Below are positions 40,194-60,956 of a stretch of DNA of 64,000 nucleotides, in pieces. The stretch covers positions 90,219-154,218 of the forward strand of contig JAJDAF010000061.1 of the NCBI GenBank assembly GCA_029261995.1, written 5' to 3'. A program made the translations under genes and the position numbers. The notes under the pieces were generated by a model. It ran no database searches. It was not told where the DNA came from and was given only the letters and a program-made list of their open reading frames with translations. Within the stretch, counting starts at the first letter, position 1. The number at the start of each line of letters is the position of its first letter. Origin of the DNA: Candidatus Zhuqueibacterota bacterium. GTDB lineage: Bacteria; Zhuqueibacterota; Zhuqueibacteria; Oceanimicrobiales; Oceanimicrobiaceae.

Positions 40194-40208
40194 GAAATCT
40201 CAAACGAG

Positions 40209-40820: not shown

Positions 40821-40846
40821 GCTTCCTTGCTGGTAAAGATTAATCT

Positions 40847-41572: not shown

Positions 41573-41892
41573 CGTCTACCTTTGCTAGAGTGATTACTCC
41601 TCGGAGCTATGAATCTGAAACGGATGCCATAATTCCCATCAGGACAACAAGAAGCTTTACGCAAGATGCATCAATTTCTCACCGAATGTCGAAGGTAGCA
41701 GATGAAATCGACTCGGCAGACATATGGCACGATGAACTTACGGAAAAGCCTATTCTAAGACAAGTTTTTTTACCGACACTTTGAATATCTCAATTACGCA
41801 CGGCTCCCTCCTACCCTCGACTCCACAAATCTTGATCTTTCCGCCCGCAACATACCATGACCACAAGTCAAGACATAAAATAAGCGCAACCC

Positions 41893-44271
41893 TCAGTCCT
41901 GGGTCGCCTTGACACCTGTCGGAGCAAGCGGAGAAACGGTGTCCTCGCGCAGAACAATGTGATCTCCGCTCCGGACAAATGACGCAGGCCGACCATTAAC
42001 AAACAACCTCGAAGTCGCCGGAGCATAGAGACGCACAGGCGTTGTCACCTCGCCGTAGAGTGAAGCGTCATCGGCTTCGAAAACAGCCTCTAACCACTGT
42101 CCGGGACTCAGATTGGCTACCAAATCTCTGTTGTTCTCAGCGTCAGTCAAAGATGTCCCTCCGAAAACAAACAATTGTTGTACAGAAGACCCGGCGAGCC
42201 TGACAACCGAAACCCGTCCATCAAAAATGTAGCTGCCGACTGTGGTCAGAGTGCCAGGTTGGCCGTCGTTGAAGATAATATCATCTGTAGTGCTTTGATT
42301 GCGAGAGTCATCCAGGCGCATTACTATGGCCATCTCGTTCTCAGCAAGCATCTCGATGTTCGGTCTAGTGCTCCAGGAAGCATCCGTGGCGGGATAGAGT
42401 ACGTTGACCAATCGCGTGTCTCCACTCCCGGAGGAGGAGTTGATGTGCACATAGGGCCGCTTGTCTTCGCCTAGCCTTGCGGTTGCGCCATCAGGAGCGA
42501 GCATACCAACCCCCAAGACCTGACTATTACCCGAATGGCCCTTGACCCACCCACTCTCAACAGATATCGGTCCGTCGAAATGGCAAACCCAGGAGTAGTC
42601 GTGAGCAACATCTGCTCGCAGTTCGTCGACGACTACGAAATAAGCAGGACGAACAAAGATCACCTGACGAGAAACCCTCTCAATTCCCTCAATTTGTTTG
42701 TATCTGCCAGTCGCATCAGCCTCGACATAGTCAAAACCAGGAGCATTCGCCGTCTTGGTGATGAACCCGTCACTGCCTGGAAAATCAGTCGGGTCTCGCC
42801 AACGACCTTCGGGGCGAAACTGACCTTGGCCATCGATCAGCAAGGTATTGTGAAATGCCGTTGCTATTCGGCCACTGCCCTGGCTTTCTGGCGCCAGCCA
42901 CTGGCCGGCGCGATATAGATAGAAGCCATTGGTATCATCGTGGTCGTGGCCGATATTTAGCTGACATCCGCTATCGCTGCACGGGCTCTCCCAGGGATAG
43001 GTTTCATTGACAAAGGAGTCAAACGCAAATCGTCCACCGTGAGCGCCGCTTTTCAACCCGAAAACCAGTGCTTCAGAATCCCAGCCTGTCCGCCAAATCA
43101 CGGCGTCTATGTCTGGAAACCATGCGGATGTCTCCAGGTCATCTGGCGATTTCGGCTGGACGGACGCGTCGAAATAAAGGAATTCAAAGACGAACCAGGG
43201 TGCAGACCAGATGTTTGCCCTCCTGGTATCAGCCTCGGCGAGTCGCCTCGCCATCCACTGTGCATAGCCGTCGTTGTATTCTCTGGCAGCGAACCGCAAG
43301 ATGTTTTGCGGCTGATAACCGTTTCCCCAGCTGGCCCTGACATCGCCATAGCCAAGAATGTTCTCGATGCTGTTCGGCAGGTGGTTGTAGATGCGCCAGG
43401 CTGGGAAATTACGTAGATATCCGTGCGGTATGAGATCGGTGCCCTTGAGCCGTCTCAGATTCACCCAGAAAGGCAAGGCCAAAGTCAGCCCGTAACTTTG
43501 ATAGTGAATGCCTTCATGCCAGCTTCCGTCCCCAATGCCGGTCAAGAAATCCTGAACGAGCGACATCCGGTCAGCCGCCTGCTCGACCCACATCTCAGCG
43601 CGGGCATCTTCTCCCAACAAGGCGAGCCCCGCCATCCCCAGTGCGCAGTTGTTTGTCCAATAATGGTTCTGCAAATAGGAATTGCGCCACCAGTTTCCCC
43701 AGGCAAGCTCTCTCGGTCCTGAACTAGCCTCGTACATTTCCTGGGCACGAGATGCCAGACTTGACCGCACAATGTTCCGTTCCGAAGGAGATAGGTTCTC
43801 ATGGAGCCAATCGTATGCGAGCGCACTTGCGAGAAGCAGGTGCGCGTGCCCAAGATCACGGTAGCCGTTTTCGTCCCACTGCTCCCATGAAGCATAAGCG
43901 AGCAGGTATTTTTTTACGAGGCTGCGATGCTCCGGACGGCCGGTGATGACCGCAGTCAGGGCAAAGGGAATGAGCATGTTGCCAAAGTTGCGATAAGTTG
44001 TGAGGGTCCCGTCGGTGGGTGAGTCCGGCGGTGGATTGGAAACCAGTTGGGCATCGGTATAATCCCGAATTGGCTGCCAGATCTCGCTATGGGTTGTCGC
44101 GGCCCGGGCTCTGATGTGCTCGATCTCACCAGCATCGAAGAACAACCTTGGATGGTCCAAATTAGAAGACTGGGCAATCGCGTACCCACTCGGCCCACCT
44201 GCGAGGATAGCGAGCAGAGCCAACCGAGCTGGCAGCGAACCTACCCTCTGCCGTCCTTGGGGGAATAGCAT
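41893..44271 (-). CDS. Secreted heparinase II/III family protein (polysaccharide lyase-like)
   Basis: 792-aa ORF with signal peptide; helical N-terminal half and C-terminal GHDHDD-containing block (NIGHDHDDTNGFYLY), the GHxHxD signature of the heparinase II/III fold. Confidence 0.65.
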   Translation of the reverse strand: MLFPQGRQRVGSLPARLALLAILAGGPSGYAIAQSSNLDHPRLFFDAGEIEHIRARAATTHSEIWQPIRDYTDAQLVSNPPPDSPTDGTLTTYRNFGNMLIPFALTAVITGRPEHRSLVKKYLLAYASWEQWDENGYRDLGHAHLLLASALAYDWLHENLSPSERNIVRSSLASRAQEMYEASSGPRELAWGNWWRNSYLQNHYWTNNCALGMAGLALLGEDARAEMWVEQAADRMSLVQDFLTGIGDGSWHEGIHYQSYGLTLALPFWVNLRRLKGTDLIPHGYLRNFPAWRIYNHLPNSIENILGYGDVRASWGNGYQPQNILRFAAREYNDGYAQWMARRLAEADTRRANIWSAPWFVFEFLYFDASVQPKSPDDLETSAWFPDIDAVIWRTGWDSEALVFGLKSGAHGGRFAFDSFVNETYPWESPCSDSGCQLNIGHDHDDTNGFYLYRAGQWLAPESQGSGRIATAFHNTLLIDGQGQFRPEGRWRDPTDFPGSDGFITKTANAPGFDYVEADATGRYKQIEGIERVSRQVIFVRPAYFVVVDELRADVAHDYSWVCHFDGPISVESGWVKGHSGNSQVLGVGMLAPDGATARLGEDKRPYVHINSSSGSGDTRLVNVLYPATDASWSTRPNIEMLAENEMAIVMRLDDSRNQSTTDDIIFNDGQPGTLTTVGSYIFDGRVSVVRLAGSSVQQLFVFGGTSLTDAENNRDLVANLSPGQWLEAVFEADDASLYGEVTTPVRLYAPATSRLFVNGRPASFVRSGDHIVLREDTVSPLAPTGVKATQD

Positions 44272-44419: not shown

Positions 44420-45487
44420 CTAAACAAAAAAGCGATACAGGACTTCTCCAGCTCTCTCGGTTACTGCGTCCGGTACCGACTCATCGGTGAAGAGGTCTGT
44501 TAACTTGGGCAGAAGCGAGTCAATCTGAGGCGTGGACTTGTTGGCTGCGCCATTGCCGTGAGTTAGAAATGAGATGGTTTTTTCGTCAGTAGCATACTTG
44601 CGTTTGTAGCGCACCAGCCCCTCTTGCTCCCAGTCGCTCAGCCCCAGATCCAGGTAATTGATGCCCCTATCGAGAGCATACTTGATCCCCTCCCACAAGA
44701 CAAGATCATTGGGACGACAGGCAACCAATTCTGGATTAGAAGCATTGAACTTGTAGTAAAGTTTCTGGCGCCATTCCAGGAACAACGCTCCGCCGACGAG
44801 TTCGCCCTGGTAGCGGGCAAGCATCAGGAAACCGTCACCCTTGGCAATGAACTGGTCCCAAATATTCTCCAGAAACTTGTACGGTTGCGCCAGGAGTTGA
44901 TACTTGTATTTCCTAATCTGAAGATGAAGTTCAAAAAAGCTGCGAAGCTCCTCTTTGCTGTCCGCGACCGAAATCTGAACTCCACACCGTTTGGCTTTGC
45001 GAATGGCACGTCGAGCAGATGCGTCCAACCCGACCCAAATCATCGCATCATCGCCGGTTATCTCGATTCCATGCCAGCGGGCCTTGTTCACCAGACTCAA
45101 TCGCGGGTCATCAAGGATGACATTATTGTGCAGACACCGAGTTTTGTAGGTCGTGCCATGCCTGAACAAGGCAGCGGTCAGAGCCTGCCATTGGTCTAAA
45201 TCATCAACCAGCGGATCACAGTAGTCCGAGAACGGCAACGTCACCGCCCGAGGCGTACGGATGTCGGTGATGTTGCAATACGGCAAGCCTGCTACTGGTT
45301 CGCCAAACTCATCGAGTAGAAGATATGCCCGTGTATCGAAACCATAGGTGTTGGCGAGTACCGTCATCCAGCCCGGCGAGTGAAATACATCGCTCTCCTT
45401 ACAGTTGACCAGGCGCTGCCACAATGGATCGACTCGCGGATCAATCGCTATGATTTTCATCTTATCGCCTCTTATACGATTTGTCAA
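44420..45487 (-). CDS. FemAB-like / GNAT-fold acyl- or aminoacyl-transferase (Acetyltransf_6-like)
   Basis: 355-aa ORF (probable start M10 at 45460); N-terminal FHSPGW motif and overall pattern typical of FemAB-related transferases found in polysaccharide loci. Confidence 0.6.
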   Translation of the reverse strand: MTNRIRGDKMKIIAIDPRVDPLWQRLVNCKESDVFHSPGWMTVLANTYGFDTRAYLLLDEFGEPVAGLPYCNITDIRTPRAVTLPFSDYCDPLVDDLDQWQALTAALFRHGTTYKTRCLHNNVILDDPRLSLVNKARWHGIEITGDDAMIWVGLDASARRAIRKAKRCGVQISVADSKEELRSFFELHLQIRKYKYQLLAQPYKFLENIWDQFIAKGDGFLMLARYQGELVGGALFLEWRQKLYYKFNASNPELVACRPNDLVLWEGIKYALDRGINYLDLGLSDWEQEGLVRYKRKYATDEKTISFLTHGNGAANKSTPQIDSLLPKLTDLFTDESVPDAVTERAGEVLYRFFV

Positions 45488-46205
45488 GCTTCAGAATATG
45501 TTCGACTACCTCGGAAAGAACATGGTCTATTGGCTGGGTGACATCGACACGCCGAAAATTGGCAACCTTCTCTCCGCGTCTGAGAAATGCTTGCCGCCTC
45601 CGTCCCAAATACTCGAGCGTTGCTTCGCCCTTTCGGCCATAAAGAATTTCGGGTGGAGCATCCAGCAGAATCGTCAGGTCTGGTTTCGGATAAGCGTTCT
45701 CGAACAGCCAATTCTGAAAACGATCTGTCAGTCTGCCGGCCTTGGTCGATGGAGCAAAGTCGAACAGCCCGTGACGGTCGTACAGTACATTGTACCCTCT
45801 CACCTGAAACAGCCACGAAATAATCTGACGGTACCAGGCATCTGCAAGGCGATTCGCCAGTCGTGCTGTTGCTCCTACCCTTCCACGTTTGTCAGGACCA
45901 TGGTGCAAATCATGATTGCTTATGGCTTTCGATTGACCACTGCCCGGGCTCTCGCTTTCCCTTTTGTGAGCCAGGACCTTGAGAAAGAAGGCCAGGCGTG
46001 ACGTCGGTAGAGCAAAATTACTGGATTGCACGTTTGTGCCCATGTACAAGTATTTAAGAGGAACCGGCGCCAATGCCACTAATTTGTTGGCTATCGTCGT
46101 CTTGCCAGCGCCGTCCGCACCAATCAATGCGACTGTGAATGTCTTCAACTTCTCTCCCTTTCCGATGTTTGAAAAGACATTTCGACTTGCGCCCCAGGCC
46201 GGCAA
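45462..46205 (-). CDS. P-loop kinase-like protein (thymidylate-kinase-like fold)
   Basis: 247-aa ORF; Walker A IGADGAGKTT near the N-terminus and a DLTILLDAPPEILYGRKGE block resembling the TMK-like lid region; substrate unknown. Confidence 0.5.
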   Translation of the reverse strand: MPAWGASRNVFSNIGKGEKLKTFTVALIGADGAGKTTIANKLVALAPVPLKYLYMGTNVQSSNFALPTSRLAFFLKVLAHKRESESPGSGQSKAISNHDLHHGPDKRGRVGATARLANRLADAWYRQIISWLFQVRGYNVLYDRHGLFDFAPSTKAGRLTDRFQNWLFENAYPKPDLTILLDAPPEILYGRKGEATLEYLGRRRQAFLRRGEKVANFRRVDVTQPIDHVLSEVVEHILKLDKSYKRR

Positions 46206-47305
46206 TGAGGCGCAAGTTTGCTGAATAGACGTTCCAGTGGCACAGGATAGGGTTGTGAGATTTGGTAGATGTCCTTGCCTTCAAGCGCAGATTCCAGCAA
46301 TCCTTTCTGTACTGATGGCAGCTCTTCAAGAAAAAGGTTCTTTGCCCCCGGGAAAGCAAACCGGAAGGCCTTATAATACTCAAGCAGGTGCAGCATTTCA
46401 AACTCATTTGTGGCGACTGCTCGCTCGACGGTTTCATTCAGGTCGCCATCCTGGACATGGATTTCGGTCTCACTGTGTCGAACAACCATAAAGACCTTAT
46501 GTAGAGTTGCCGTGGACAGACATCGGCTTTTCGTGAACAGAACATGCGGTGCAACCTTGATTTTGAGCTGCCGTTCAATCGCTGGTAAGGCCCTCATCAG
46601 CGAGATGAGCCACAATGAAGTCCGCAATGAAGTCGATGTCAGCCTACGGCCAATCGCCCCGAGCAGATGAATTCCCTTGAACAGAATTCTCCTGTGTAAG
46701 CTTAGCCTTGGAATCTGGGATAAGTACTTGAACTGCCACTCTGAAATCTCCACCGGCTTCGGCATTGCCAGTATTTTTTCGCCATCAGCCGACAGCACCA
46801 CCCATTCATCGCCAACGAATTGCGCGCCATGGTTCATGAAGGACAACAGAGTTCCTGTTTTGCCGGCCTTGGCCCACGCCAACACCATCACCCCGAAGCC
46901 ATCATAGACAAAAGCTGATGCATGAAGAGGAACAAAGCCTTTTCTAAGAAAAGTCAGTCTGATGATATCGAATAGCAAGGGAATGCCATCTCCTCGGGTA
47001 CTGACGATCTCACACCGTTCCCCAATCGTCTCGAATGGAATGCAGGCCTTGGGCTTTCCAGTATGGCGGCACAGGAGGTAAAAACCGTCCTTCGTAAACC
47101 CAACCCAGTTCTGGCCAAGGTAAGCCATGCCAGCGTTCGGCAATTCGTCCACGAACCGCACGATTATATCAGGTTCGCCGGCTGGTTCGGTCGCGCTGGC
47201 CCCTGACCGCATGCTGAATGCATCGGAGTCCTCTTTCCCTGGCTTGACGAGGCGAACGCGGACGACACCGTGGATGTCGTAGTCAACAATCAGGACGCCC
47301 TCCAT
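46145..47305 (-). CDS. HPr kinase C-terminal-domain-like protein (HprK-related kinase)
   Basis: 386-aa ORF; core LHASAFVYDGFGVMVLAWAKAGKTGTLLSFMNHGAQFVGDEWVVL matches the HprK C-domain pattern (H-x-S/A, P-loop GK[ST], h-G-x-x-LV-[AG]-DD). No PTS genes nearby. Confidence 0.55.
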   Translation of the reverse strand: MEGVLIVDYDIHGVVRVRLVKPGKEDSDAFSMRSGASATEPAGEPDIIVRFVDELPNAGMAYLGQNWVGFTKDGFYLLCRHTGKPKACIPFETIGERCEIVSTRGDGIPLLFDIIRLTFLRKGFVPLHASAFVYDGFGVMVLAWAKAGKTGTLLSFMNHGAQFVGDEWVVLSADGEKILAMPKPVEISEWQFKYLSQIPRLSLHRRILFKGIHLLGAIGRRLTSTSLRTSLWLISLMRALPAIERQLKIKVAPHVLFTKSRCLSTATLHKVFMVVRHSETEIHVQDGDLNETVERAVATNEFEMLHLLEYYKAFRFAFPGAKNLFLEELPSVQKGLLESALEGKDIYQISQPYPVPLERLFSKLAPHCRPGAQVEMSFQTSERERS

Positions 47306-47344
47306 TGGCCAACGCCGTCTTGGCTGCTCTTCTGGCTATTGATT

Positions 47345-48643
47345 TCATTGACCTTGTTCACTCGTTTGATTCCGCGCGATGGAAGCTCCTTTCTTGCGCG
47401 GGCTTACGACGCGCTGATTCGCATAATCTCCCTTGCCCTGCTCCTTAGCAGAGAAAAAGACTGGAACAACCCGCGCAACCGCATTCAGGAATGGCACTGG
47501 GTCGCGCCATGACCACAGAGCAAAGGACTTCGGGCCTCGGACGGATTGCACCCAATCTTTGAGTGACAGATTACCACGCCGCCAATGGTGCAGAGCAGCT
47601 TGTGTATCGCGTAGCAGATGCATCCACTTAAGCGCGGTAAATTGCTGGGTGCGGTTTTCAGGCAGAGCGAGTCCGAGCGCGTCGCAATACATGGTGTACA
47701 GCAGTTCTACGCCGCTCGCTTCCGCCATTGAAGCCCTTCCCGTGGGGCGCCCGACATTCGGTTCAATGATGAAATACTGGCCTGTTCTTTCATCCAACTT
47801 CATCTCGAGATAAGCAAGACCACGAAATGCAACACTTTGAAAAAGACGTACGGTCTCGTGCAACACGGTGTCGTTGCGATACTCATCAGAAAGACACGCT
47901 TGTCCTGTCTGAGGCAGCCATTGACGCAGCTTGCGGCTGGTGTAGGTAACAAGCGGTTTTGAATTGCTGTCAAAGTAGCAGTTGCAGGTGAAATGATTTG
48001 CATCGGGACCCTCAACCCATTCCTGCACGATGAGGGTATCCGACCATCTGTGATAGTGGCGATAAAGCCCCATAAGTTCCTCGGAATTGGCCGCTTTGGC
48101 TGCCTTGACCTTGGTGTGTTTTGTCCAGGCCTCGGGTCGCCACGGCGGCTTCAAGACACACGGGAATTTGATTGTAGCCGCGGCTGCTTCCGCATCGTCG
48201 ATATTGTTGAGAATAAACGTCGCCGGAATTAGGAAGTCCTGCTTGCGGGCGAATTCGTAGAAAGAGGCCTTGTCCAGCATCATGTCAATAGTATCATGAG
48301 GAGGCAGAATAATGCGGTACCACTCATCGAGAATACTCCGGTTCCTTGAGATGTTGAGCACATTCTTATCCTGACAGGGAAGCAGCACCGGCCGGTCTTG
48401 AAACTGCGGACCGAGTCTCGCCAATGTGGTGATCAATTCATCGCTTCCCGTATCAGCGTAGATGATTTCGTCGCACGCATTCGTTTTGCAGCTGTGATAT
48501 CTGGGATCTTGCGCTATGGCGATCACCGGAATTTGACGTGAGGCGAGAATTCGAGCCGAACTCAGCCCTTGCAGGCTGTCAAGCCCGACCAGAATCACCG
48601 GAACAGGCCCGCGACTTGGACTTGTGTCTCTCCTACCCAGCAC
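47345..48643 (-). CDS. ATP-grasp domain protein (carboxylate-amine ligase-like)
   Basis: 432-aa ORF; ATP-grasp-like blocks FPCVLKP, IVQEWVEG, LAYLEMKLDERTGQYFIIEPNVGRP. Confidence 0.6.
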   Translation of the reverse strand: MLGRRDTSPSRGPVPVILVGLDSLQGLSSARILASRQIPVIAIAQDPRYHSCKTNACDEIIYADTGSDELITTLARLGPQFQDRPVLLPCQDKNVLNISRNRSILDEWYRIILPPHDTIDMMLDKASFYEFARKQDFLIPATFILNNIDDAEAAAATIKFPCVLKPPWRPEAWTKHTKVKAAKAANSEELMGLYRHYHRWSDTLIVQEWVEGPDANHFTCNCYFDSNSKPLVTYTSRKLRQWLPQTGQACLSDEYRNDTVLHETVRLFQSVAFRGLAYLEMKLDERTGQYFIIEPNVGRPTGRASMAEASGVELLYTMYCDALGLALPENRTQQFTALKWMHLLRDTQAALHHWRRGNLSLKDWVQSVRGPKSFALWSWRDPVPFLNAVARVVPVFFSAKEQGKGDYANQRVVSPRKKGASIARNQTSEQGQ

Positions 48644-49358
48644 TTTGGGCTCTCTCTTTCTTTGCGGATAAGATCACCCATGGACTAAGCGCATGTAGCC
48701 GCGGGAGTCCAAACTTACGTTCGATCCGTTCAACCCCTCGAACATAAGGACTATCGCTTCGCCGACAAAACGGTAACCAATAATAGCCTCGGACACGCTC
48801 TACCTGAAAGCCGAACTCGTGAAGGACTTTGAACAACTCGGAACAGCTAAACTGCTCTTCGGCCTTCCAAAGCCTTCTGCCTTTGGCCTTGTGCAGTATC
48901 CATCGAGCCGCTCGCTTGTAGTTATTTCGATTGAGCGATTGCAGAATGAGCCGCCCGCCATTCTGCAAAACCCTGTGGCATTCCGGCAGGAAAAGTCTGT
49001 AGTCAAAATACTCAAAGCATTGAATCGCGAGAACACACTGAAACTTTCCGTTGCTGAAAGGCAAGTGATGCGCATCGCTTTGTACAAGCGGAGAATTGCT
49101 CGACTTTCTCCGGAAGAGCTTGAGCGTCAATGGATCCAGCTCCGTTCCCACGACGTTGATGCCAGCCTCGCTCAAAGGCAAAGCATGACGTCCCGTTCCG
49201 GTGGCGATGTCGAGCAGGCGCTTGGGCTTCTCGCCATTGTTTAGAGTCCGATTGATGAAATCCTGCTCGAAGCGAGTGAGGTAGCGCCCAATCGCTGTCA
49301 TGTTGTACTGGTCCCAGTACCAATCAGGCGGTGTGTCGGTTCTGAATGACATTGGCAA
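48633..49358 (-). CDS. Class I SAM-dependent methyltransferase
   Basis: 241-aa ORF; motif I LLDIATGTGRH and motif post-I VVGTELD. Confidence 0.7.
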   Translation of the reverse strand: MPMSFRTDTPPDWYWDQYNMTAIGRYLTRFEQDFINRTLNNGEKPKRLLDIATGTGRHALPLSEAGINVVGTELDPLTLKLFRRKSSNSPLVQSDAHHLPFSNGKFQCVLAIQCFEYFDYRLFLPECHRVLQNGGRLILQSLNRNNYKRAARWILHKAKGRRLWKAEEQFSCSELFKVLHEFGFQVERVRGYYWLPFCRRSDSPYVRGVERIERKFGLPRLHALSPWVILSAKKERAQSAG

Positions 49359-49365
49359 CGCTCAC

Positions 49366-50502
49366 CTATCTTGTGCGATAGCGGTTTAGGATCTTCTTGA
49401 CGCAGGTCCATTGCGAGAGCTTCGAAAAGACAAGTTTGTAACCTGCGCGAATCAATGGATTGTAAATATGGTCGTAAGGACCCGGGCAAAGAGAGATGTC
49501 ACCTCCAAAACCCAGCTTGAAGCGACTCACTGAATTCTTGAGCGCGCCATCCAGATCCTTGTTGTGAAGGACGGCATCAGCGGCCTCTGGCGCGATTCCC
49601 TCGAAATCATAGGCGAGATATCCGTTAGATTTCGCCCATGTGATGATATGCCAGTGCAGCAGTTCGTTAGGCCGCAGATGCTTTTTTTCACCCAGCCATC
49701 CCCCTCTCTTGTAGAGCACTGTATCTCCAAAGGCAATAACTATTGCCCCGGATAACACCACGCCGTCGTGTTCAGCCAGAAACATCTTAATGTGTCCGGC
49801 ACCCGAAAAGGACCTCCACAATTGGAAAAAGTAGTCCTGCGATTCCGCCCAAAAATCTTGCCGCTCGCTGGTTGATATGAACAAGCGATAAAAGCTCGTG
49901 ATCTCAGCATTTTCTACTTCCCTGACACGGATTCCCTGTCGCTTTGCCAAACGAATGTTATAACGCGTTTTTGCCTTCATGCGGCTTAAAAGTTCATCCA
50001 GTTCCAGGGTGAGATCAACAACAACAGTAGATGTTGGAGCAAATCTGAGATGACTGGTGTTGAACCCTGCTCCGAGCAAGTCATCCCCCAAGTAGTGAGC
50101 ATCGTTGGGGGGTTGTACGACGATCTGTTGGGCGCCGTGTTCCCGAGCCACCTTGCATATTTGCTTCACGATCTTTCCGCTCAAATAGCGATATTGCTTA
50201 GCCAGAACGGGTCCTTTTGGCACGTAACAGAATGCGCCGGCGACAGGCAGCGGTCGAATGAGAAGCTGAGCTCCGGCTACGATGGCACCCTCCAATTTCA
50301 CAAGCAAACGTTTGGCCTCCCAGCCCTGCTGCGTTTTAACTCTGGCCCAACGGCTAGTCTGGACATGGTGGCCACCCGGAGCGGTTTCCAGGAACCTATC
50401 CCATTCCGGATCATTCATCAGGTCAGAAACATGTATCCTGAGACCTTCCTCGATTGCTTGGACTTCAATGAGATTTTTCACGATCTCTCTGTGAGTTTTC
50501 AA
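49366..50502 (-). CDS. FemAB family protein (aminoacyl-tRNA-dependent or acyl transferase-like)
   Basis: 378-aa ORF; N-terminal HHVQTSRWARVK block and two-lobed organisation typical of FemAB/FemX-like proteins associated with EPS loci. Confidence 0.6.
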   Translation of the reverse strand: MKTHREIVKNLIEVQAIEEGLRIHVSDLMNDPEWDRFLETAPGGHHVQTSRWARVKTQQGWEAKRLLVKLEGAIVAGAQLLIRPLPVAGAFCYVPKGPVLAKQYRYLSGKIVKQICKVAREHGAQQIVVQPPNDAHYLGDDLLGAGFNTSHLRFAPTSTVVVDLTLELDELLSRMKAKTRYNIRLAKRQGIRVREVENAEITSFYRLFISTSERQDFWAESQDYFFQLWRSFSGAGHIKMFLAEHDGVVLSGAIVIAFGDTVLYKRGGWLGEKKHLRPNELLHWHIITWAKSNGYLAYDFEGIAPEAADAVLHNKDLDGALKNSVSRFKLGFGGDISLCPGPYDHIYNPLIRAGYKLVFSKLSQWTCVKKILNRYRTR

Positions 50503-50519
50503 GATTTCAAAAACGTAGT

Positions 50520-51176
50520 TTATTTCCCAGACTCATTCTGGCACCAACAACTATTCTTGCGAAGAATATGGACTTCAACATCCTCGTGGCCCAGCACGCG
50601 CATTGCGGCAACGCGATGGTGGCCGTTCTGGATGAAATAATGACTCTGGCCATGATAGCACCTGATCGGTGGATAAAGTGACCGGTCGTAGCCTCGATTC
50701 TTGACGGAGTCAAACAGTGCGAAATAGTATGCAACGCGTTTCGCGATAGCGGCATCCACCAGGACTGTCTGGGCCTGTTCGAAACGCAGGAGCTTTACAC
50801 CTTGCTCCTGGTGCGCTAGAGTAATTTCGCGCATTAGCGACCCACGAGCCCATCCACCCTGCGACTTTGGAGCCTTGAACCCCTCCATTGTGATGAGACA
50901 CTCGCGTAGCCAGTCCGTGAACAGCGCTTCCGCCTTACGAGAGCATCTCAGGTACATTGTAAAAAATTTGTACGGAGGGAAATGGTCGATTTTTCTTCCG
51001 GAAAACCCCTGCAGTTCTGAGAAGGGTTTCTTCTGACATCGTACATTCTCGATGGCTAGGCGAGTCAACTTCCTGTGCCCAAGAATCTCATGGTGTTTCG
51101 CTTTGATGTCGTAAACGAGCCAAGAGATGGACATCTTGCGGATAACCGCTCGGGACAGTTCTCTTGTGACAGTCAT
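50520..51176 (-). CDS. Hypothetical protein with C-terminal ParB/sulfiredoxin-like GxHRxxA motif
   Basis: About 218 aa from ATG 51176, whose start overlaps the stop of the upstream GT4 gene (track ORF extends to 51245); C-terminal YFIQNGHHRVAAMRVLG resembles the ParB/Srx nucleotide-binding motif. Confidence 0.4.
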   Translation of the reverse strand: MTVTRELSRAVIRKMSISWLVYDIKAKHHEILGHRKLTRLAIENVRCQKKPFSELQGFSGRKIDHFPPYKFFTMYLRCSRKAEALFTDWLRECLITMEGFKAPKSQGGWARGSLMREITLAHQEQGVKLLRFEQAQTVLVDAAIAKRVAYYFALFDSVKNRGYDRSLYPPIRCYHGQSHYFIQNGHHRVAAMRVLGHEDVEVHILRKNSCWCQNESGK

Positions 51177-51177
51177 T

Positions 51178-52371
51178 TTAGCCAAGTGCTGTATAAACCT
51201 TGAGTAAGTTCTTGCCCTGGTGCTGCCACGCCAACTCCGTTTCAATGCGCCGCCGTCCTATCTTACCCATGCTTTCGCGGCGTTCCGGGTCATCCATCAA
51301 GATGCTGATCGTTCGGGCAAATTCGGTCTCATCGTTAGGCGTCACGTAGAGCGCGGCATCTCCTGCAGTAACTCGGTGCTCGGGAAGATCAAACGCGACG
51401 ACCGGTTTGCCCAAAGCCATGTACTCCATCAGTTTTATCATCGTGGAATTATCATTGTAACTGTTGGATGGTTCCGGAGACAGGCAAATGTCAGCAGTGC
51501 TCAACAAACTGGGGACCTTTTCATGCTCAACGACACCAGTAAAGGACACGTGTTGGTCGAGCCGCAGTTCTTGAGCCATGGATTTTAGCTCCGTCCAGGC
51601 ATCCCCTCCACCAATAAGAGTACACGACACGTTCGTTCGCCCCAGCTCATACACCAGGTGTGCTATCGTCCTTAGCAAATAGTCCAATCCGTCATGAAAG
51701 CCCATATCGCCAACGTAACCAAGGACCGTCTTTCCTTGCGTCGCGGTGGGCAAACCATTGCTTTGGGGCTTCAGGAAGTTCATGTCTGGCCCATTCCGAA
51801 CGATGCTGATTCGAGCATCCGGCACGCCGCAGCGTTCAACTTCAATTAGTTTGTAAGATTGATTTGTCGTGATCACATGGTCAGCAAGGCGGCACGAGAG
51901 TTTTTCAAAAAAGGCAAGGCTTCGATGCACCAGAGAACTTCCTTTCCCTCCGAAACGAGCATAGTACATTTCCGGCGACAGGTCGTGATGGTCGAAGACG
52001 AAACGTTTTCCAAACAGTTTGTAAAATGCCGCAATCAAGACAAAGGTGTCGGGAGGGTTATGGGCATGAACCACATCAAACCCTGGTCGAAAAGCCACCA
52101 AAAGGGATATAAAAAACGTGGCCCCCATCGCGTATCCATATTCGAGCATATAGCCCCAAAACCCATTCGCGGTTCCGGGTGCGGTGTAGCGATAAACCTT
52201 GACACCATTGATTTCTTCAGAGGCTGGCTGGCCTGCTAATCTTTGGCTAATGACCGTCACGCGGCGCCCCGAGGACACCAGTGTATTGGCCTCCTGCCGG
52301 ACCCGGCAGTCTTGTGGGTAGCTGGTGTTCTCCACCAACATCAGGATTCGTATTTGTGCAGAGGACTTCAT
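51178..52371 (-). CDS. Family 4 glycosyltransferase (GT-B fold)
   Basis: About 397 aa from ATG 52371, overlapping the upstream stop (track ORF to 52407); C-terminal GT1/GT4 region with the E-x7-E-like block (EPSNSYNDNSTMIKLMEYMALGKPVV). Confidence 0.8.
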   Translation of the reverse strand: MKSSAQIRILMLVENTSYPQDCRVRQEANTLVSSGRRVTVISQRLAGQPASEEINGVKVYRYTAPGTANGFWGYMLEYGYAMGATFFISLLVAFRPGFDVVHAHNPPDTFVLIAAFYKLFGKRFVFDHHDLSPEMYYARFGGKGSSLVHRSLAFFEKLSCRLADHVITTNQSYKLIEVERCGVPDARISIVRNGPDMNFLKPQSNGLPTATQGKTVLGYVGDMGFHDGLDYLLRTIAHLVYELGRTNVSCTLIGGGDAWTELKSMAQELRLDQHVSFTGVVEHEKVPSLLSTADICLSPEPSNSYNDNSTMIKLMEYMALGKPVVAFDLPEHRVTAGDAALYVTPNDETEFARTISILMDDPERRESMGKIGRRRIETELAWQHQGKNLLKVYTALG

Positions 52372-53519
52372 GATACACCGGCGCCAAGCGGGACGCGTTT
52401 TGCACATTCGAGCAGCAGGTGGTGTAATATCATGGATAAATAGCGGGGGTATGATCTGCGATCTGTTGGAAATCCACCTCTGCCCCTGGAGTGGAAGCGC
52501 AAACTACCGTCGGGGTTTATTAGTGTCAAGACCCGTTCATAGCTTCGGTTGGCAAGTCGGGAATAATCCCCCAGGCCCAGGACCGTAGCGTGACTCAATG
52601 CGGCGCCTACCGCAGTAGCGTAGTACGTCACTTCCGGTTGCTTGCGGCGGCAATCGTAGCAAACCGCGCCCGATTCACAGACGCCCTGAGAAATAAAACG
52701 CGCAAGCTTTTCAAGCACCGGCCAAATTGCACGATCCTGAGTTAAGTCATGGTATTCCGTCAGGTTCAAGAACTGAAAGGCGTTATACTGGAAGCACAGA
52801 AAGTGGATACGATCCTTCCGAACGCTACTCCCGGGACCGGCGACGGCGTAAGGGAGTTCACCCGATTCAAGTTGAACTTGATTGAGCCATGCAACCATCC
52901 CGCGACAGGTTTCCAGGTATTGCTCGTCGCCAGAGGCTTTGGAGAGCATGGCGAAAACCCGCAGCGCAGAAGCTGAATTGTTCGGCACCATTCCAGTGCC
53001 AAGGTCACAGAAATAATTGATGGCCATCAAGCCATTTGCCTTCTGAAACCCGATTCGATCGACTGCAAACCTGTACCATCGTTTGGCTGCATCCAGGAAC
53101 GGGTCATGTTGTGTTCTATGGTATGCCTCCAGCAAAGCCATGGCTGCATAGTTACCCTCAACAGTGGCAACTCTCCCCTGCCACTCCCGATTTGGGTACT
53201 CCCAATAGCCATCAGGGCGCTGCACAGAAAGCAAGTACTCACCGCACGCCACGGCAATATCATGACACCTTTCGGGGTCAGCCAGGTTCAGGTCAGCCAT
53301 CAAACCGTTATTCATGATCCAGTATTTTTGTGTCTGAGCATAAGTCAGGCTGTCATCCCACCGAATAAAATCACTGTAGCTCTTAATGAAGCGGCCGATT
53401 CGGGCATTAAGACGAATGCCAGGATCCGGCCCCCGGAGCGCTCGTCCGGTCCAGTGGTTTCTCAATAGATGTTGGTACAGGCGTCCTGCCGCATCACTCA
53501 GTAACTGTTGTGAAATCAT
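52368..53519 (-). CDS. Hypothetical protein, possibly an alpha/alpha-barrel glycan-processing fold
   Basis: 383-aa ORF translationally coupled between two GT4 genes; W/Y-rich helical pattern (PDGYWEYP, ESGELPY) but no confident family assignment. Confidence 0.35.
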   Translation of the reverse strand: MISQQLLSDAAGRLYQHLLRNHWTGRALRGPDPGIRLNARIGRFIKSYSDFIRWDDSLTYAQTQKYWIMNNGLMADLNLADPERCHDIAVACGEYLLSVQRPDGYWEYPNREWQGRVATVEGNYAAMALLEAYHRTQHDPFLDAAKRWYRFAVDRIGFQKANGLMAINYFCDLGTGMVPNNSASALRVFAMLSKASGDEQYLETCRGMVAWLNQVQLESGELPYAVAGPGSSVRKDRIHFLCFQYNAFQFLNLTEYHDLTQDRAIWPVLEKLARFISQGVCESGAVCYDCRRKQPEVTYYATAVGAALSHATVLGLGDYSRLANRSYERVLTLINPDGSLRFHSRGRGGFPTDRRSYPRYLSMILHHLLLECAKRVPLGAGVS

Positions 53520-54670
53520 GAGGTTTTACAATCCTTGAGAATCTGTTCCAGCTTCAAAGTATTGGCGGATGAAAAGAGTCTCTCGGCATTTGCTCTATTC
53601 TGTTCTCCGAGATCACGGCGCAATTTTGGTGAATCGCACGCCTGGCGTAAGGCATCAGTCAATTGCTCTACATTGTTTTCTTCTACCAGAATTGCTTCAA
53701 CCGCCTCGGGAATGCCGACGTGTCGGGTGCTAATTACAGGCTTGCTGAACGCCATCGCTTCTGCGATAACATTCGGAAAGCCTTCGCGGTCGCCATATCG
53801 GTCCGGGCGTGATGGCAAACAGAAGATGTCGCATTCGCGATACAAGGCGCGCAGTGCGTTATCCTTTTGCAGTCCGAAGAACGCCACCTGGGAGTCTATG
53901 CCCAAGTCTTTCGCGAGCTTGCGGCAATCTACCCGCAACGCCCAGCGTGACACATCGCCGACAACCCATACTTCGACATCATCGCGGTCCAGTTGCTTGA
54001 TGGCCTGGAACAATATCTCATGCCCCTTCTTTTCTGCAAAGTAGCCCACGATCAATATCTTGATTTTTGACTTGAGTTGATAGGCATTGAGATCGACGAT
54101 TTGCCGTACGACCTCTACTTTTTCCGGCGACACGCCATACTTTTCGACAAGAAGAGATTTATTGTACTCCGTAATCGTTACGATGCGGTCGCTGGCAGCG
54201 AGAGCCCTAACGAACATGCGTGGATTTGGATTCCTATAAAATTCATAGGCACGCACCGTCACGACCAGCGGTAGCCCAGTAATTAGCTTGCAGTAGTATC
54301 CGACGAAGAGCTTATGATCTCCGAAATAAGCGAAGATGATGTCCATCCCCCGCATTTTGTTGGCGAAATAAACGGCGACGAAAAAATCGACTAGAGAATG
54401 CGAACCCAACGCAATCGTGAGCAAGTGAAGATATTTGGCAGGTTTCATCAAAGAGAATTGGAGTTGCCGGAGAATCAGGGCCCACCGGCTTATCGGGATG
54501 ACCTCCCACTCAGGTAAAGGATTGTATAGCCCCGTTTCATTGTGGAGCGTGAAAATTTTCACCCGGTTCTGTTTTGCAACGAGGGCCTGAATGTCACGAA
54601 ATATGAACTGAGTCAAGCCGTGCTTCATGCTGGTGATCAAGGCAATTGCTATTGGTTTTGCGGTCGTCAC
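53516..54670 (-). CDS. Family 4 glycosyltransferase (GT-B fold)
   Basis: 384-aa ORF; C-terminal GT4 motifs (GYFAEKKGHEIL, EGFPNVIAEAMAFSKPVIST). Confidence 0.8.
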   Translation of the reverse strand: MTTAKPIAIALITSMKHGLTQFIFRDIQALVAKQNRVKIFTLHNETGLYNPLPEWEVIPISRWALILRQLQFSLMKPAKYLHLLTIALGSHSLVDFFVAVYFANKMRGMDIIFAYFGDHKLFVGYYCKLITGLPLVVTVRAYEFYRNPNPRMFVRALAASDRIVTITEYNKSLLVEKYGVSPEKVEVVRQIVDLNAYQLKSKIKILIVGYFAEKKGHEILFQAIKQLDRDDVEVWVVGDVSRWALRVDCRKLAKDLGIDSQVAFFGLQKDNALRALYRECDIFCLPSRPDRYGDREGFPNVIAEAMAFSKPVISTRHVGIPEAVEAILVEENNVEQLTDALRQACDSPKLRRDLGEQNRANAERLFSSANTLKLEQILKDCKTS

Positions 54671-54673
54671 ACT

Positions 54674-58730: not shown

Positions 58731-58752
58731 TATTTTGCTCAGTTTTCGAAGT

Positions 58753-59895: not shown

Positions 59896-59906
59896 TCAAT
59901 GTATCA

Positions 59907-60914: not shown

Positions 60915-60956
60915 TCTTCATCTCCTGTTTCAGATTGTGCATGGTTATGTTGCTGT

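What the first reader, a model, noticed from the sequence alone, without database searches (positions are those of the whole stretch)
44420..51245. Seven-gene tailoring cassette embedded in a Wzx/Wzy polysaccharide operon
Seven consecutive minus-strand genes with overlapping or near-abutting boundaries encode two FemAB-like transferases, an ATP-grasp ligase, an HPr-kinase-like protein, a thymidylate-kinase-like P-loop protein, a SAM methyltransferase and a ParB/Srx-motif protein. FemAB and ATP-grasp enzymes form amide bonds with amino acids, so together with two kinases and a methyltransferase this points to aminoacyl or peptidyl, phospho and methyl decoration of a glycan or lipid-linked intermediate. 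Alternatively it could be a separate small-molecule or peptide pathway co-transcribed with the EPS genes. I do not recognise this gene combination as a characterised pathway.
Basis: partly seen in the sequence, partly recalled or inferred. Interest (0 to 1): 0.7.

Follow-up and report, generated by a model that had tools for sequence, protein, structure and literature searches.

The report
Uncharacterised polysaccharide-tailoring kinase–ligase cassette
Seven tightly packed genes inside a bacterial slime-polysaccharide operon encode two amino-acid-adding enzymes, a ligase, three kinase-like proteins and a methyltransferase; five of them recur together in polysaccharide loci of many phyla, and nobody has worked out what decoration they make.

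Summary
Seven co-directional, abutting minus-strand genes at 44420-51245 encode: a FemX-like transferase, a more divergent FemAB-like transferase, an ATP-grasp ligase, an HprK/PEPCK-fold P-loop kinase, a thymidylate-kinase-derived P-loop protein, a class-I SAM methyltransferase, and a ParB/Srx-fold protein nearest to the free serine kinases SerK and SbnI. They sit in a Wzx/Wzy/Wzc polysaccharide operon of a probable KSB1 bacterium.

The conserved unit is not all seven genes. The core is ATP-grasp + HprK-like + TMK-like. Relatives of the kinase occur in 378 species-representative genomes across at least eight phyla, almost always in polysaccharide loci. The ligase and kinase are fused in five loci. 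Two FemAB-like genes join this core in one sub-clade, and six of the seven genes are contiguous in a Calditrichota MAG. The ParB/Srx gene is a lineage-specific addition from a small family that is fused elsewhere to GT2, Wzx or methyltransferases.

About half of the related loci insert a true PEP mutase plus a VlpB-like reductase next to the core. The window has neither.

Best reading: cytoplasmic aminoacyl, amide, phospho and methyl tailoring of a sugar precursor or lipid-linked repeat unit. The chemistry is inferred, not shown. I found no literature on it.

The parts
50520..51176 (-). g7: ParB/Srx-fold protein (218 aa; the longest ORF reaches 51245). Nearest solved relatives are the free L-serine kinases SbnI and SerK. 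Lineage-specific addition to the cassette.
49366..50502 (-). g6: FemX-like (FemABX family) transferase, 378 aa, without the coiled-coil insert.
   Evidence: Pfam FemAB 139 bits, Acetyltransf_6 64 bits. NCBIfam FemX 82.7 bits against a cut-off of 500. PDB 6snr 1.1e-22 and FemX_Wv 1.2e-18 over residues 31-312. Orthologues at 43-46% identity in L008 and L019.
48633..49352 (-). g5: class-I SAM-dependent methyltransferase.
   Evidence: Methyltransf_11 68.9 bits, Methyltransf_25 57.9 bits. Best NCBIfam is the DVU_1556 family at 58 bits against a cut-off of 155. Orthologue at 43% identity directly after the FemAB genes in L019.
47345..48643 (-). g4: ATP-grasp carboxylate-amine/thiol/alcohol ligase (432 aa). 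Core-triad member.
   Evidence: Weak single-sequence hits. Family profile vs PDB: 2pn1 3.4e-10, Ddl 3e-9, CPS 5e-9, RimK, LysX, cyanophycin synthetase. Present in 27 of 35 well-flanked loci. Fused to the HprK-like protein in L045, L063, L064, L071 and L077.
46145..47305 (-). g3: HprK/PEPCK-fold P-loop kinase (386 aa). Signature gene of the module.
45462..46148 (-). g2: thymidylate-kinase-derived P-loop protein (about 228 aa) with a divergent acceptor region. Core-triad member.
   Evidence: Pfam Thymidylate_kin 27.9 bits (cut-off 27), C-terminal part only; TIGR00041 36 bits against a cut-off of 83. Family profile vs TMK structures 3.6e-14, positions 114-220 only. Invariant G..DG.GK.T, D-R and R..E. 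Lies within 250 bp of the HprK-like gene in 28 of 40 loci.
44420..45460 (-). g1: divergent FemAB-like / Acetyltransf_6 protein (346 aa).
   Evidence: Acetyltransf_6 73.6 bits, FemAB 33.1 bits. pepcterm_femAB 53 bits against a cut-off of 260. PDB FemX about 4e-4. Orthologues at 53-54% identity in L007, L008 and L019.
51178..63906 (-). Upstream part of the same operon: GT4 (51178-52407), unclassified (alpha/alpha)6-like protein (52368-53519), GT4 (53516-54670), GT2 (54674-55714), Wzx (55715-57277), Wzy (57219-58730), DegT-type aminotransferase (58753-59895), GFO-type sugar 3-dehydrogenase-like (59907-60914), polyprenyl-P glycosylphosphotransferase (60957-61625), Wzc-type co-polymerase/tyrosine kinase (61948-63906).
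   Evidence: Pfam and NCBIfam. The order Wzy-Wzx-GT2-GT4-(a/a)6-GT4 is shared with L019 at 48-58% identity.
40117..44271 (-). Downstream end of the locus: secreted heparinase II/III-like protein (41893-44271), GT2 (40847-41572), DedA/VTT membrane protein (40209-40820), tRNA-Pro(CGG) (40117-40194).
   Evidence: Pfam. Signal-peptide-like N-terminus. Orthologues at 45% identity in L008 and L019. tRNA.

Best explanation
The seven genes are a cytoplasmic tailoring block of the Wzx/Wzy exopolysaccharide pathway. All seven products are soluble and depend on cytoplasmic co-substrates (ATP, SAM, probably aminoacyl-tRNA). They must therefore act on a nucleotide sugar or on the undecaprenyl-PP-linked repeat unit before Wzx flips it.

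Proposed sequence (inferred):
1. The GFO-type 3-dehydrogenase-like enzyme and the DegT aminotransferase, encoded upstream, make an amino sugar. No N-acetyltransferase is encoded in the operon to cap its new amine.
2. The FemX-like g6 and the divergent g1 transfer one or two aminoacyl residues to that amine, as FemX does to a lysine epsilon-amine.
3. The ATP-grasp ligase g4 makes a further amide or ester bond through an acyl-phosphate.
4. The HprK/PEPCK-fold kinase g3, which works physically with g4 (the two are fused elsewhere), phosphorylates a hydroxyl of the appended group or of a sugar.
5. The TMK-derived g2 follows NMP-kinase logic and either phosphorylates an existing phosph(on)ate or adds a second phosphate.
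6. The methyltransferase g5 and the ParB/Srx-fold g7 (SerK/SbnI-like) add a methyl, or a phospho-methyl modification analogous to WbdD.

Shown here: fold and family of each protein, operon packing, and recurrent co-occurrence and fusion inside polysaccharide loci. Inferred: every substrate and the order of steps.
For: - **Operon and location.** Abutting co-directional genes. None has a hydrophobic segment (max Kyte-Doolittle score over 19 residues below 1.6).
- **Embedding.** The block lies between glycosyltransferases, Wzx, Wzy, Wzc and PGT on one side and a secreted heparinase-like enzyme on the other.
- **Context of the signature kinase.** In 35 related loci with at least 8 kb on both sides, g3 relatives sit with Wzc (24), GT2 (19), PGT (18) and Wzx (15), and with ATP-grasp (27) and TMK-like (25).
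- **Fusion.** ATP-grasp and HprK-like are fused in five loci.
- **Synteny.** Five of the seven genes recur as a block in Chloroflexia L008 and in the Ignavibacteria loci. Six of the seven are contiguous in Calditrichota L019.
- **FemX homology.** g6 aligns with FemX over both GNAT-like domains.
- **Catalytic residues.** The HprK catalytic His, P-loop and acidic pair are conserved in g3.
- **Amino-sugar link.** DegT aminotransferases occur only in the FemAB-containing loci (6 of 10, against 0 of 25). Polysaccharide deacetylases, which also expose amines, occur in 7 of 10.
- **No N-acetyltransferase in the window operon**.
- **g7 family fusions** to GT2, Wzx and methyltransferases.
- **Phosphate-related genes in related loci:** APH kinases, WbdD-like MT-kinase, phytase, VTC, CotH and PEP mutase.
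Against: - No substrate was tested.
- The FemAB/DegT association rests largely on one clade (Ignavibacteria), so the loci are not independent observations.
- HprK-like genes also occur without ATP-grasp or FemAB, for example next to heptose-nucleotide genes. The kinase's role may therefore be independent of the aminoacyl chemistry.
- PF13480/FemAB-like proteins in polysaccharide loci have never been shown to use aminoacyl-tRNA (my knowledge; none found).
- g2 resembles TMK only in the P-loop and the C-terminal half, and could bind rather than phosphorylate.
- The g7 model is of low confidence.
Confidence: 0.6

Rival explanations
1. The triad (ATP-grasp, HprK/PEPCK-fold kinase, TMK-like kinase) does not touch the glycan. 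It makes and activates a soluble phospho- or phosphono-hydroxy/amino-acid donor, which a separate transferase then attaches. In PEP-mutase loci the acid would be phosphonolactate. In this window it would be an isosteric primary metabolite such as 3-phosphoglycerate or O-phosphoserine, the latter possibly supplied by the SerK/SbnI-like g7.
For: - A true PEP mutase (motif EDKxxxxxNS in 23 of 26) and a VlpB-type 2-hydroxyacid dehydrogenase lie directly beside the triad in 17 of 35 well-flanked loci. VlpB-type enzymes are proposed to reduce phosphonopyruvate to phosphonolactate (PMC8942020).
- Within single clades, the cassette occurs with or without this pair.
- g3 aligns with PEPCK, a C3/C4-acid phosphotransferase, over 265 residues.
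- NMP-kinase-fold enzymes phosphorylate phosphoryl groups (established knowledge).
- g7's nearest solved relatives are free serine kinases.
- PMC8942020 notes a Ppm "unusually flanked by thymidylate kinase".
Against: - The window has no PEP mutase or VlpB homologue.
- g7 is absent from all other triad loci.
- No dedicated transferase for such a donor was identified.
- HprK-like genes in the heptose-type loci lack both the ligase and PepM.
Confidence: 0.2
2. The HprK-like and TMK-like proteins are regulatory. g3 is a protein serine kinase, like HprK/P or the lasso-peptide kinases, that phosphorylates a component of the assembly machinery (Wzc, PGT or a glycosyltransferase) to control polysaccharide output.
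For: - All characterised HprK-domain proteins phosphorylate Ser on a protein or peptide (established knowledge).
- The catalytic motif is conserved.
- It co-occurs frequently with Wzc (24 of 35).
Against: - It is fused to an ATP-grasp ligase.
- It has a PEPCK-like N-terminal domain.
- It lies directly next to PEP mutase or to nucleotide-heptose genes.
- It sits in the middle of biosynthetic genes rather than beside Wzc.
- No HPr-like or peptide substrate gene is nearby.
Confidence: 0.08
3. The block is a separate small-molecule or peptide pathway (RiPP-like, or the TIGRFAM 'GAK' ATP-grasp/HprK-related-kinase system) that is merely co-transcribed with the polysaccharide genes.
For: - The combination of ATP-grasp and HprK-related kinase recalls the GAK system (weak HprK_rel_A hit, E=0.008).
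- FemAB-like and ATP-grasp enzymes also occur in natural-product pathways (PMC12945691 listed; PMC8942020).
Against: - HprK_rel_A scores 15 bits against a cut-off of 200.
- There is no PqqD, CofD-like or precursor-peptide gene, and no intergenic space for one.
- There is no exporter other than Wzx.
- The triad is embedded in Wzc/PGT/GT/Wzx loci in at least eight phyla.
- The g7 family is fused to GT2 and Wzx.
Confidence: 0.07
4. The block is a peptidoglycan branch-peptide or housekeeping nucleotide module: g6/g1 are true Fem transferases acting on lipid II, g4 is a Ddl-like ligase, and g2 is a real dTMP kinase.
For: - g6 matches lipid II:glycine glycyltransferase at 1e-22.
- The g4 profile hits Ddl at 3e-9.
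- g2 has a TMK P-loop.
Against: - All scores are far below the equivalog cut-offs: 82.7 vs 500 and 36 vs 83.
- No mur, ddl or pbp genes are nearby.
- The host is probably a KSB1 bacterium, a diderm lineage (a BamD/YfiO-like domain).
- g2 lacks the TMK nucleotide-acceptor region.
- The neighbours in other genomes are consistently polysaccharide-locus genes.
Confidence: 0.03

Closest known systems
FemX / FemABX aminoacyl-tRNA-dependent transferases (W. viridescens FemX, S. aureus FemX; Pfam PF02388/PF13480)
   Same: g6 aligns over both GNAT-like domains with solved FemX proteins (E 1e-22 and 1e-18). g1 is a weaker relative. As with FemX_Wv, the expected acceptor is an amine on a nucleotide- or lipid-linked sugar precursor in the cytoplasm.
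   Different: - Scores are far below the FemX equivalog cut-off (82.7 vs 500).
- The context is a Wzx/Wzy polysaccharide locus, not cell-wall genes.
- tRNA dependence and acceptor are untested.
FemAB family XrtA/PEP-CTERM system-associated protein (TIGR03019)
   Same: This is also a FemAB-like protein encoded in exopolysaccharide loci, and it is also functionally uncharacterised. Several neighbours here give weak hits to XrtA-system models (chain-length determinant, stp GTs).
   Different: g1 and g6 score 53 and 50 bits against a cut-off of 260. No exosortase gene or PEP-CTERM hallmark was seen in the window.
HprK/P, HprK-like lasso-peptide kinases, and ATP-dependent PEPCK (the PEPCK-like P-loop superfamily)
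   Different: - No Pfam Hpr_kinase_C hit.
- The N-terminal domain and C-terminal helices differ.
- It is partnered with, or fused to, an ATP-grasp ligase inside polysaccharide loci.
- No HPr or peptide substrate is nearby.
Campylobacter jejuni capsule tailoring: the O-methyl phosphoramidate pathway (Cj1415-Cj1420) and the Cj1438 ATP-grasp amidoligase (recalled from memory, not tested here)
   Same: Both are capsule or EPS-locus tailoring sets. Both combine an ATP-grasp-containing enzyme, a small P-loop kinase and SAM methyltransferases, and both make phospho/methyl and amide decorations on a sugar before export.
   Different: No homology was demonstrated. No cytidylyltransferase, glutamine-kinase or amidase equivalent is present. 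The HprK-fold kinase and FemAB-like enzymes have no counterpart there.
WbdD kinase-methyltransferase of the E. coli O9a O-antigen (recalled from memory)
   Same: Both pair a phosphotransferase with a SAM methyltransferase on a glycan. WbdD-like Methyltransf_11+APH fusion proteins occur in 12 of the related loci. The g7 family is fused to methyltransferases.
   Different: The window has no APH-type kinase domain and uses Wzx/Wzy, not an ABC transporter. g7 has a ParB/Srx fold.
Free L-serine kinases SerK (T. kodakarensis, 5x0b) and SbnI (S. aureus): ParB/Srx-fold small-molecule kinases
   Different: Only about 55 residues align. The rest of g7 (the helical N-terminal two-thirds) is unrelated. 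Activity is untested, and the context is glycan biosynthesis.
Early valinophos-type phosphonate steps (Ppm + VlpB giving phosphonolactate; PMC8942020)
   Same: In 17 of 35 related loci the triad lies next to a true PEP mutase and a 2-Hacid_dh_C reductase.
   Different: The window lacks both genes. Those loci are polysaccharide loci, not Streptomyces natural-product clusters, and the downstream vlpCDE genes are not seen.

Membership tests
FemABX transferases (Pfam PF02388 / PF13480) | Sequence membership above the Pfam gathering threshold, covering both GNAT-like domains | tested here: met
   g6: FemAB 139.1 bits (cut-off 24); aligns with FemX residues 11-301. g1: Acetyltransf_6 73.6 bits (cut-off 22) and FemAB 33.1 bits (cut-off 24), but only partial coverage.
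FemABX transferases (Pfam PF02388 / PF13480) | Uses aminoacyl-tRNA as donor and a peptidoglycan precursor as acceptor | not testable with these tools
   The equivalog models are not reached (FemX 82.7 vs 500). The genomic context is polysaccharide, not cell wall.
XrtA/PEP-CTERM-associated FemAB (TIGR03019) | Score at or above the curated cut-off of 260 bits | tested here: not met
   g1 53.2 bits, g6 50.1 bits.
HprK/P (HPr serine kinase/phosphorylase) | Hpr_kinase_C domain with P-loop, catalytic His and Asp-Asp | tested here: inconclusive
HprK/P (HPr serine kinase/phosphorylase) | Phosphorylates Ser46 of HPr; HPr/PTS context | not tested
   No PTS or HPr gene was seen among the window genes examined.
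GAK system / HprK-related kinase A (TIGR04352) | Score at or above 200 bits, with PqqD-like, CofD-like and amphi-Trp partner genes | tested here: not met
   15.4 bits, E=0.0077. None of the partner families is among the neighbours.
ATP-dependent PEPCK | PEPCK sequence family and oxaloacetate/PEP-binding residues | tested here: not met
Thymidylate kinase (TIGR00041 / PF02223) | Full-length match including the dTMP-binding region; curated cut-off | tested here: not met
   TIGR00041 36 bits vs 83.25. Pfam 27.9 bits vs 27, but only profile positions 96-180. The family profile matches TMK structures only over its C-terminal half.
ATP-grasp superfamily | ATP-grasp fold with conserved Lys, Glu and Asn nucleotide/Mg residues | tested here: met
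   The family profile hits 49 solved ATP-grasp enzymes down to 3.4e-10. K165, E294, N296 and R299 are invariant. No specific subfamily cut-off is reached.
ParB/Srx fold (incl. SerK/SbnI serine kinases) | ParB/Srx core with the (D/N)GHHR-type motif | tested here: met
ParB/Srx fold (incl. SerK/SbnI serine kinases) | Serine kinase activity | not testable with these tools
   Only about 55 residues align with SerK/SbnI.
Phosphonoglycan / phosphonate biosynthetic locus | PEP mutase with the EDKxxxxxNS motif in the locus | tested here: not met
   No PepM or VlpB-like homologue anywhere in the 64-kb window. Both are present in 26 and 24 of the related loci.
Wzx/Wzy-dependent polysaccharide locus | Initiating PGT, Wzx flippase, Wzy polymerase and Wzc co-polymerase in one operon | tested here: met
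   Polysacc_synt/MurJ-like Wzx, Wzy_C, EPS_sugtrans 238 bits, and tyrosine autokinase domain TIGR01007 143.8 bits (cut-off 108).
Anti-phage defence systems (PADLOC) | Match of any cassette protein to a defence-system model | tested here: not met
   Only the generic methyltransferase domain of g5 matches (mad2); the other six proteins match nothing.

The most novel reading that the evidence does not exclude
ATP-grasp ligase + HprK/PEPCK-fold kinase + TMK-derived kinase is an undescribed, widely distributed enzymatic module that installs a phosphorylated or phosphonylated acyl/aminoacyl side group on exopolysaccharides. Candidates are phosphonolactyl, phosphoglyceroyl or phosphoseryl groups.

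It would do this without nucleotidyl (CMP) activation, which would be a new route for attaching phosphonates and phosphates to glycans.

The window would show the PepM-less variant. There, FemX-like aminoacyl-tRNA-dependent transferases and a SerK-like ParB/Srx kinase build a methylated phospho-peptidyl branch on an amino sugar. That would be the first tRNA-dependent aminoacylation of a non-peptidoglycan polysaccharide.
Probability: 0.3. Interest if true: 0.8.

Novelty: new variant of a known kind. Interest (0 to 1): 0.6.

Why it matters
**Gap in knowledge.** Non-carbohydrate substituents (amino acids, phosphate, phosphonate, methyl) determine the charge, metal binding, phage and immune recognition, and material properties of bacterial polysaccharides. 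The enzymes that add amino acids or phosph(on)ates are known for only a handful of model pathogens.

**What this block offers.**
- It identifies a recurrent set of enzymes with no curated family assignment. The set is present in hundreds of mostly uncultured species: KSB1, Calditrichota, Ignavibacteria, Acidobacteriota, Chloroflexota and Actinomycetota.
- It links an HprK/PEPCK-fold kinase to glycan biosynthesis for the first time.
- In half of the loci the module is coupled to PEP mutase. It may therefore explain how phosphonolactate-type phosphonates reach cell-surface polymers, which is relevant to environmental phosphorus cycling.

**Testability.** The kinase-ligase fusion gives a directly testable enzyme pair.

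Tried and rejected
**Rejected readings**
- **Defence-system reading** (ParB-like + methyltransferase + kinases). PADLOC gave only a generic methyltransferase-domain hit.
- **RiPP/GAK reading.** The HprK_rel_A score is negligible, and there are no partner genes and no space for a precursor peptide.
- **Phosphonate locus.** I searched the whole window for PepM and VlpB and found none. The phosphonate link therefore applies to relatives only.

**Results that had to be revised**
- **g7 as an orphan.** The word-indexed search found only 2 relatives. The exhaustive profile search found 142 cluster representatives, so it is a small family.

**Attempts that failed or gave little**
- The first attempt to fetch loci with the 22-sequence alignment failed because it had no conserved stretch. 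A 10-sequence alignment worked.
- Exact look-ups of the window's own proteins found no contig on record. Cluster look-up gave no names.
- The afdb50 fold library was unavailable.
- Literature searches for HPr kinase + ATP-grasp + polysaccharide, FemAB + exopolysaccharide, phosphonate + HPr kinase, and phosphonoglycan clusters returned nothing on this module.
- The promoter/terminator scan was no better than shuffled sequence.
- PF27840, which is precomputed on some g3 homologues, is not in the local Pfam copy, so its name is unknown.

Full report
**1. Observation**

The window carries a long minus-strand operon from at least 63906 down to about 40209. Seven ORFs lie inside it at 44420-51245. 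Homologue alignments and Shine-Dalgarno-like motifs favour starts at 51176 (g7), 49352 (g5), 46148 (g2) and 45460 (g1). With those starts the junctions range from a 2-nt overlap to a 39-nt gap. A consensus scan finds no credible internal terminator, and its counts are no better than shuffled sequence. None of the seven proteins has a hydrophobic segment. All have homologues in other phyla, so they are real genes.

**2. Identity of each product**

| Gene | Assignment | Key evidence |
|---|---|---|
| g6 | Clear FemABX-family protein | Pfam FemAB 139 bits; S. aureus FemX E=1e-22; W. viridescens FemX E=1e-18 across both GNAT-like domains |
| g1 | More divergent relative | Acetyltransf_6 74 bits; FemX about 4e-4 |
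| g4 | ATP-grasp ligase | Single-sequence hits marginal; 26-member family profile hits 49 solved ATP-grasp enzymes, best 3e-10 |
| g5 | Class-I SAM methyltransferase | |
| g2 | TMK-derived P-loop protein | TMK-type P-loop and DR(H)/LID elements; family profile matches TMKs (3.6e-14) over the C-terminal half only; region between P-loop and DRH differs |

No protein reaches the curated cut-off of any characterised equivalog.

**3. Context in the window**

Upstream, in transcription order, are:
- a Wzc-type co-polymerase/tyrosine kinase;
- a small polyprenyl-phosphate glycosylphosphotransferase;
- a GFO-family oxidoreductase whose best model is UDP-GlcNAc 3-dehydrogenase (below its cut-off);
- a DegT aminotransferase;
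- Wzy, Wzx, GT2 and GT4;
- an unclassified (alpha/alpha)6-like protein, then another GT4.

Downstream are a signal-peptide-bearing heparinase II/III-like protein, a GT2, a DedA protein and tRNA-Pro. The operon encodes no N-acetyltransferase. The rest of the window is housekeeping. The best named relatives of its UvrC, at 70-72% identity, are all candidate division KSB1.

**4. Comparative genomics**

*Distribution.* The g3 family has 98 relatives in the word-indexed protein search, all annotated as hypothetical. A pattern scan of one genome per GTDB species found 378 encoding stretches. The 80 fetched loci come from Ignavibacteria, Calditrichia, KSB1, Bacteroidota, Chloroflexota, Acidobacteriota and Actinomycetota, plus single Deinococcota, Planctomycetota and Proteobacteria MAGs.

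*Partners.* I clustered all ORFs of these loci. Among the 35 loci with at least 8 kb on both sides, the partner genes are:

| Partner | Loci (of 35) |
|---|---|
| ATP-grasp | 27 |
| TMK-like | 25 |
| Wzc | 24 |
| GT2 | 19 |
| PGT | 18 |
| PEP mutase | 17 |
| 2-hydroxyacid dehydrogenase | 17 |
| Wzx | 15 |
| FemAB-like | 10 (all 10 also have ATP-grasp) |
| DegT | 6 (all FemAB-positive) |

*Adjacency and fusion.* The TMK-like gene lies within 250 bp of the kinase gene in 28 of 40 loci. In five loci (L045, L063, L064, L071, L077) the ATP-grasp and HprK-like proteins are one polypeptide.

*Synteny.* Calditrichota locus L019 has GT4, ATP-grasp, HprK-like, TMK-like, FemAB, FemAB and methyltransferase contiguous, preceded by the same Wzy-Wzx-GT2-GT4-(a/a)6 genes and followed by the heparinase-like gene. 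Chloroflexia L008 and the Ignavibacteria loci carry the five-gene set with two FemAB-like genes.

*g7.* It has no counterpart in any of these loci. It nevertheless belongs to a family of 142 cluster representatives, some fused to GT2, Wzx or class-I methyltransferases. One homologue sits between a GT4 and a hexapeptide acyltransferase.

*Conclusion.* The recurrent unit is a triad. A FemAB pair joins it in one sub-clade. The methyltransferase and g7 are peripheral.

**5. A lead from the relatives**

In 26 loci a PF13714 protein sits next to the triad, and 23 of these carry the diagnostic PEP-mutase motif EDKxxxxxNS. A 2-Hacid_dh_C dehydrogenase is almost always beside it. This is the enzyme type proposed to reduce phosphonopyruvate to phosphonolactate in the valinophos pathway (PMC8942020). 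That paper also remarks on a Ppm "unusually flanked by thymidylate kinase".

Within single clades the cassette occurs with or without this pair. The window has neither gene.

Other related loci put the kinase next to GDP-heptose-type genes (GmhA, HddA, HddC, GmhB), VTC/DUF4956/CotH proteins, phytase, APH kinases or WbdD-like methyltransferase-kinase fusions. These polysaccharide loci are unusually rich in phosphoryl-transfer enzymes.

**6. Mechanism**

*Shown:* folds, conserved catalytic motifs, operon packing, and recurrent association and fusion inside polysaccharide loci.

*Inferred:* because all seven proteins are soluble and need ATP, SAM and probably aminoacyl-tRNA, they act before flipping, on a nucleotide sugar or the Und-PP-linked repeat unit.
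- The GFO/DegT pair should make an amino sugar, and nothing in the operon would acetylate its new amine.
- The FemX-like enzymes are the natural candidates to acylate that amine with amino acids.
- The ATP-grasp ligase would add a further amide or ester bond.
- The HprK/PEPCK-fold kinase, working with the ligase, and the TMK-derived protein would add phosphate(s).
- The methyltransferase, and possibly the SerK-like g7, would finish the group.

The main rival places the triad upstream, making an activated phospho- or phosphono-acid donor. Its support comes from PEP-mutase adjacency, the PEPCK-like domain and NMP-kinase logic. Regulatory-kinase, RiPP/GAK, cell-wall and defence readings fit the data poorly.

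**7. Novelty**

Tailoring genes inside Wzx/Wzy loci are a known kind. This particular enzyme set is not described in the literature I could search and has no curated family model. That applies especially to an HprK/PEPCK-fold kinase partnered or fused with an ATP-grasp ligase, a TMK-derived protein, and FemX-like transferases in a polysaccharide locus. I rate it a new variant of a known kind, with moderate-to-high interest. The chemistry is open and directly testable.

**8. Caveats**

- Flanks are limited to 10 kb and many contigs are short, so absences are soft.
- Many loci are phylogenetically related, so co-occurrence counts are not independent.
- The g7 model is weak.
- The comparisons with C. 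jejuni capsule tailoring and with WbdD rest on my memory, not on tests here.

Noticed in passing
L004, L007, L013, L014, L026, L027, L030, L034-L036, L038, L044-L046, L048, L049, L052, L054, L056, L065, L067, L071 (e.g. L045:7803-8702): True PEP mutases (motif EDKLFPKTNS) paired with a VlpB-like 2-hydroxyacid dehydrogenase lie directly beside the ATP-grasp/HprK-like/TMK-like genes inside Wzc/PGT/GT loci. These are candidate phosphonolactate-type phosphonoglycan loci in Ignavibacteria, Calditrichia, Acidobacteriota and Chloroflexota, with no cytidylyltransferase evident.
   Followed up: partly
L045:8753-11104, L063:8717-11206, L064:8714-11224, L071:8666-11113, L077:7574-11176: Natural fusion proteins of about 780 aa or more with the ATP-grasp ligase at the N-terminus and the HprK/PEPCK-fold kinase at the C-terminus (49% and 39% identity to g4 and g3).
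   Followed up: yes
window 47305-47347: g4 and g3 are in the same reading frame, separated only by two stop codons and 39 nt (translation ...EQGQ*NQ*PEEQPRRRWPMEG...). This looks like a split, or not-yet-fused, version of the fusion seen elsewhere.
   Followed up: partly
window 50520-51176; proteins P0103-P0244: g7 belongs to an unannotated family of about 200-aa ParB/Srx-fold proteins (142 cluster representatives). Members are fused to GT2 glycosyltransferases, a Wzx-like flippase and class-I methyltransferases. No Pfam model hits the stand-alone members that were scanned (g7, P0103, P0110, P0159).
   Followed up: partly
L006, L011, L018, L023, L028, L035, L037, L041, L044, L071, L073, L076: A recurring set sits next to the HprK-like gene: VTC-domain protein, DUF4956 protein and a roughly 970-aa CotH-kinase/beta-helix protein. 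GDP-heptose-type genes (SIS/GmhA, GHMP/HddA, NTP-transferase, HAD phosphatase) often accompany it, and in several of these loci there is no ATP-grasp gene.
   Followed up: no
e.g. L030:18105-19814 and 11 other loci; L030:11113-12519: WbdD-like fusion proteins (Methyltransf_11 + APH kinase domain, about 570 aa) and a beta-propeller phytase with an FlgD-Ig domain occur in the related polysaccharide loci. The WbdD-like genes were never seen together with FemAB-like genes (0 of 10).
   Followed up: no
window 52368-53519 (-): A 383-aa protein lies between two GT4 genes. It gives only sub-threshold (alpha/alpha)6-type hits (GH127, GH76, DUF6288) and no NCBIfam hit. It is conserved at 58% and 45% identity in L019 and L051 at the same position.
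   Followed up: no
window 41893-44271 (-): A 792-aa DUF4962 + heparinase II/III-like protein with a signal-peptide-like N-terminus ends the biosynthetic block. It is conserved at 45% identity in L008 and L019. A terminator-like hairpin overlaps its stop codon (41907-41886).
   Followed up: no
window 58753-60914 (-): A GFO-family oxidoreductase (best model UDP-GlcNAc 3-dehydrogenase, 178 bits, below its cut-off) sits next to a DegT aminotransferase, as in the WbpB/WbpE pairing. The visible part of the operon has no WbpD-type acetyltransferase, no UDP-sugar 6-dehydrogenase and no 2-epimerase. Relatives carry the 6-dehydrogenase (L007, L008, L033, L051) or the 2-epimerase (L014, L021, L038).
   Followed up: partly
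window 40117-40194 (-): tRNA-Pro(CGG) lies immediately after the DedA gene and marks the downstream edge of the polysaccharide locus.
   Followed up: no
window 16642-18486 (+) and the rest of 1-40000: The upstream half of the window is housekeeping: UvrD/PcrA, UvrC, PurL, HisRS, RadA, RsmB, a sigma-54 response regulator, a 1266-aa TPR/BamD-like protein and a VIT+VWA protein. The best named relatives of UvrC (70-72% identity) are all candidate division KSB1, so the genome is probably a KSB1 MAG.
   Followed up: partly
proteins P0037, P0039, P0040, P0043, P0046: Some g3 homologues carry a precomputed Pfam accession, PF27840, that is absent from the local Pfam copy. Whether a family model for this kinase already exists, and what it is called, could not be determined.
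   Followed up: partly
L003, L017 (4742-5641), L050: A sulfotransferase (Sulfotransfer_3) sits inside the FemAB/HprK-like/TMK-like block of some loci. This suggests that sulfate can be an alternative or additional anionic decoration.
   Followed up: no
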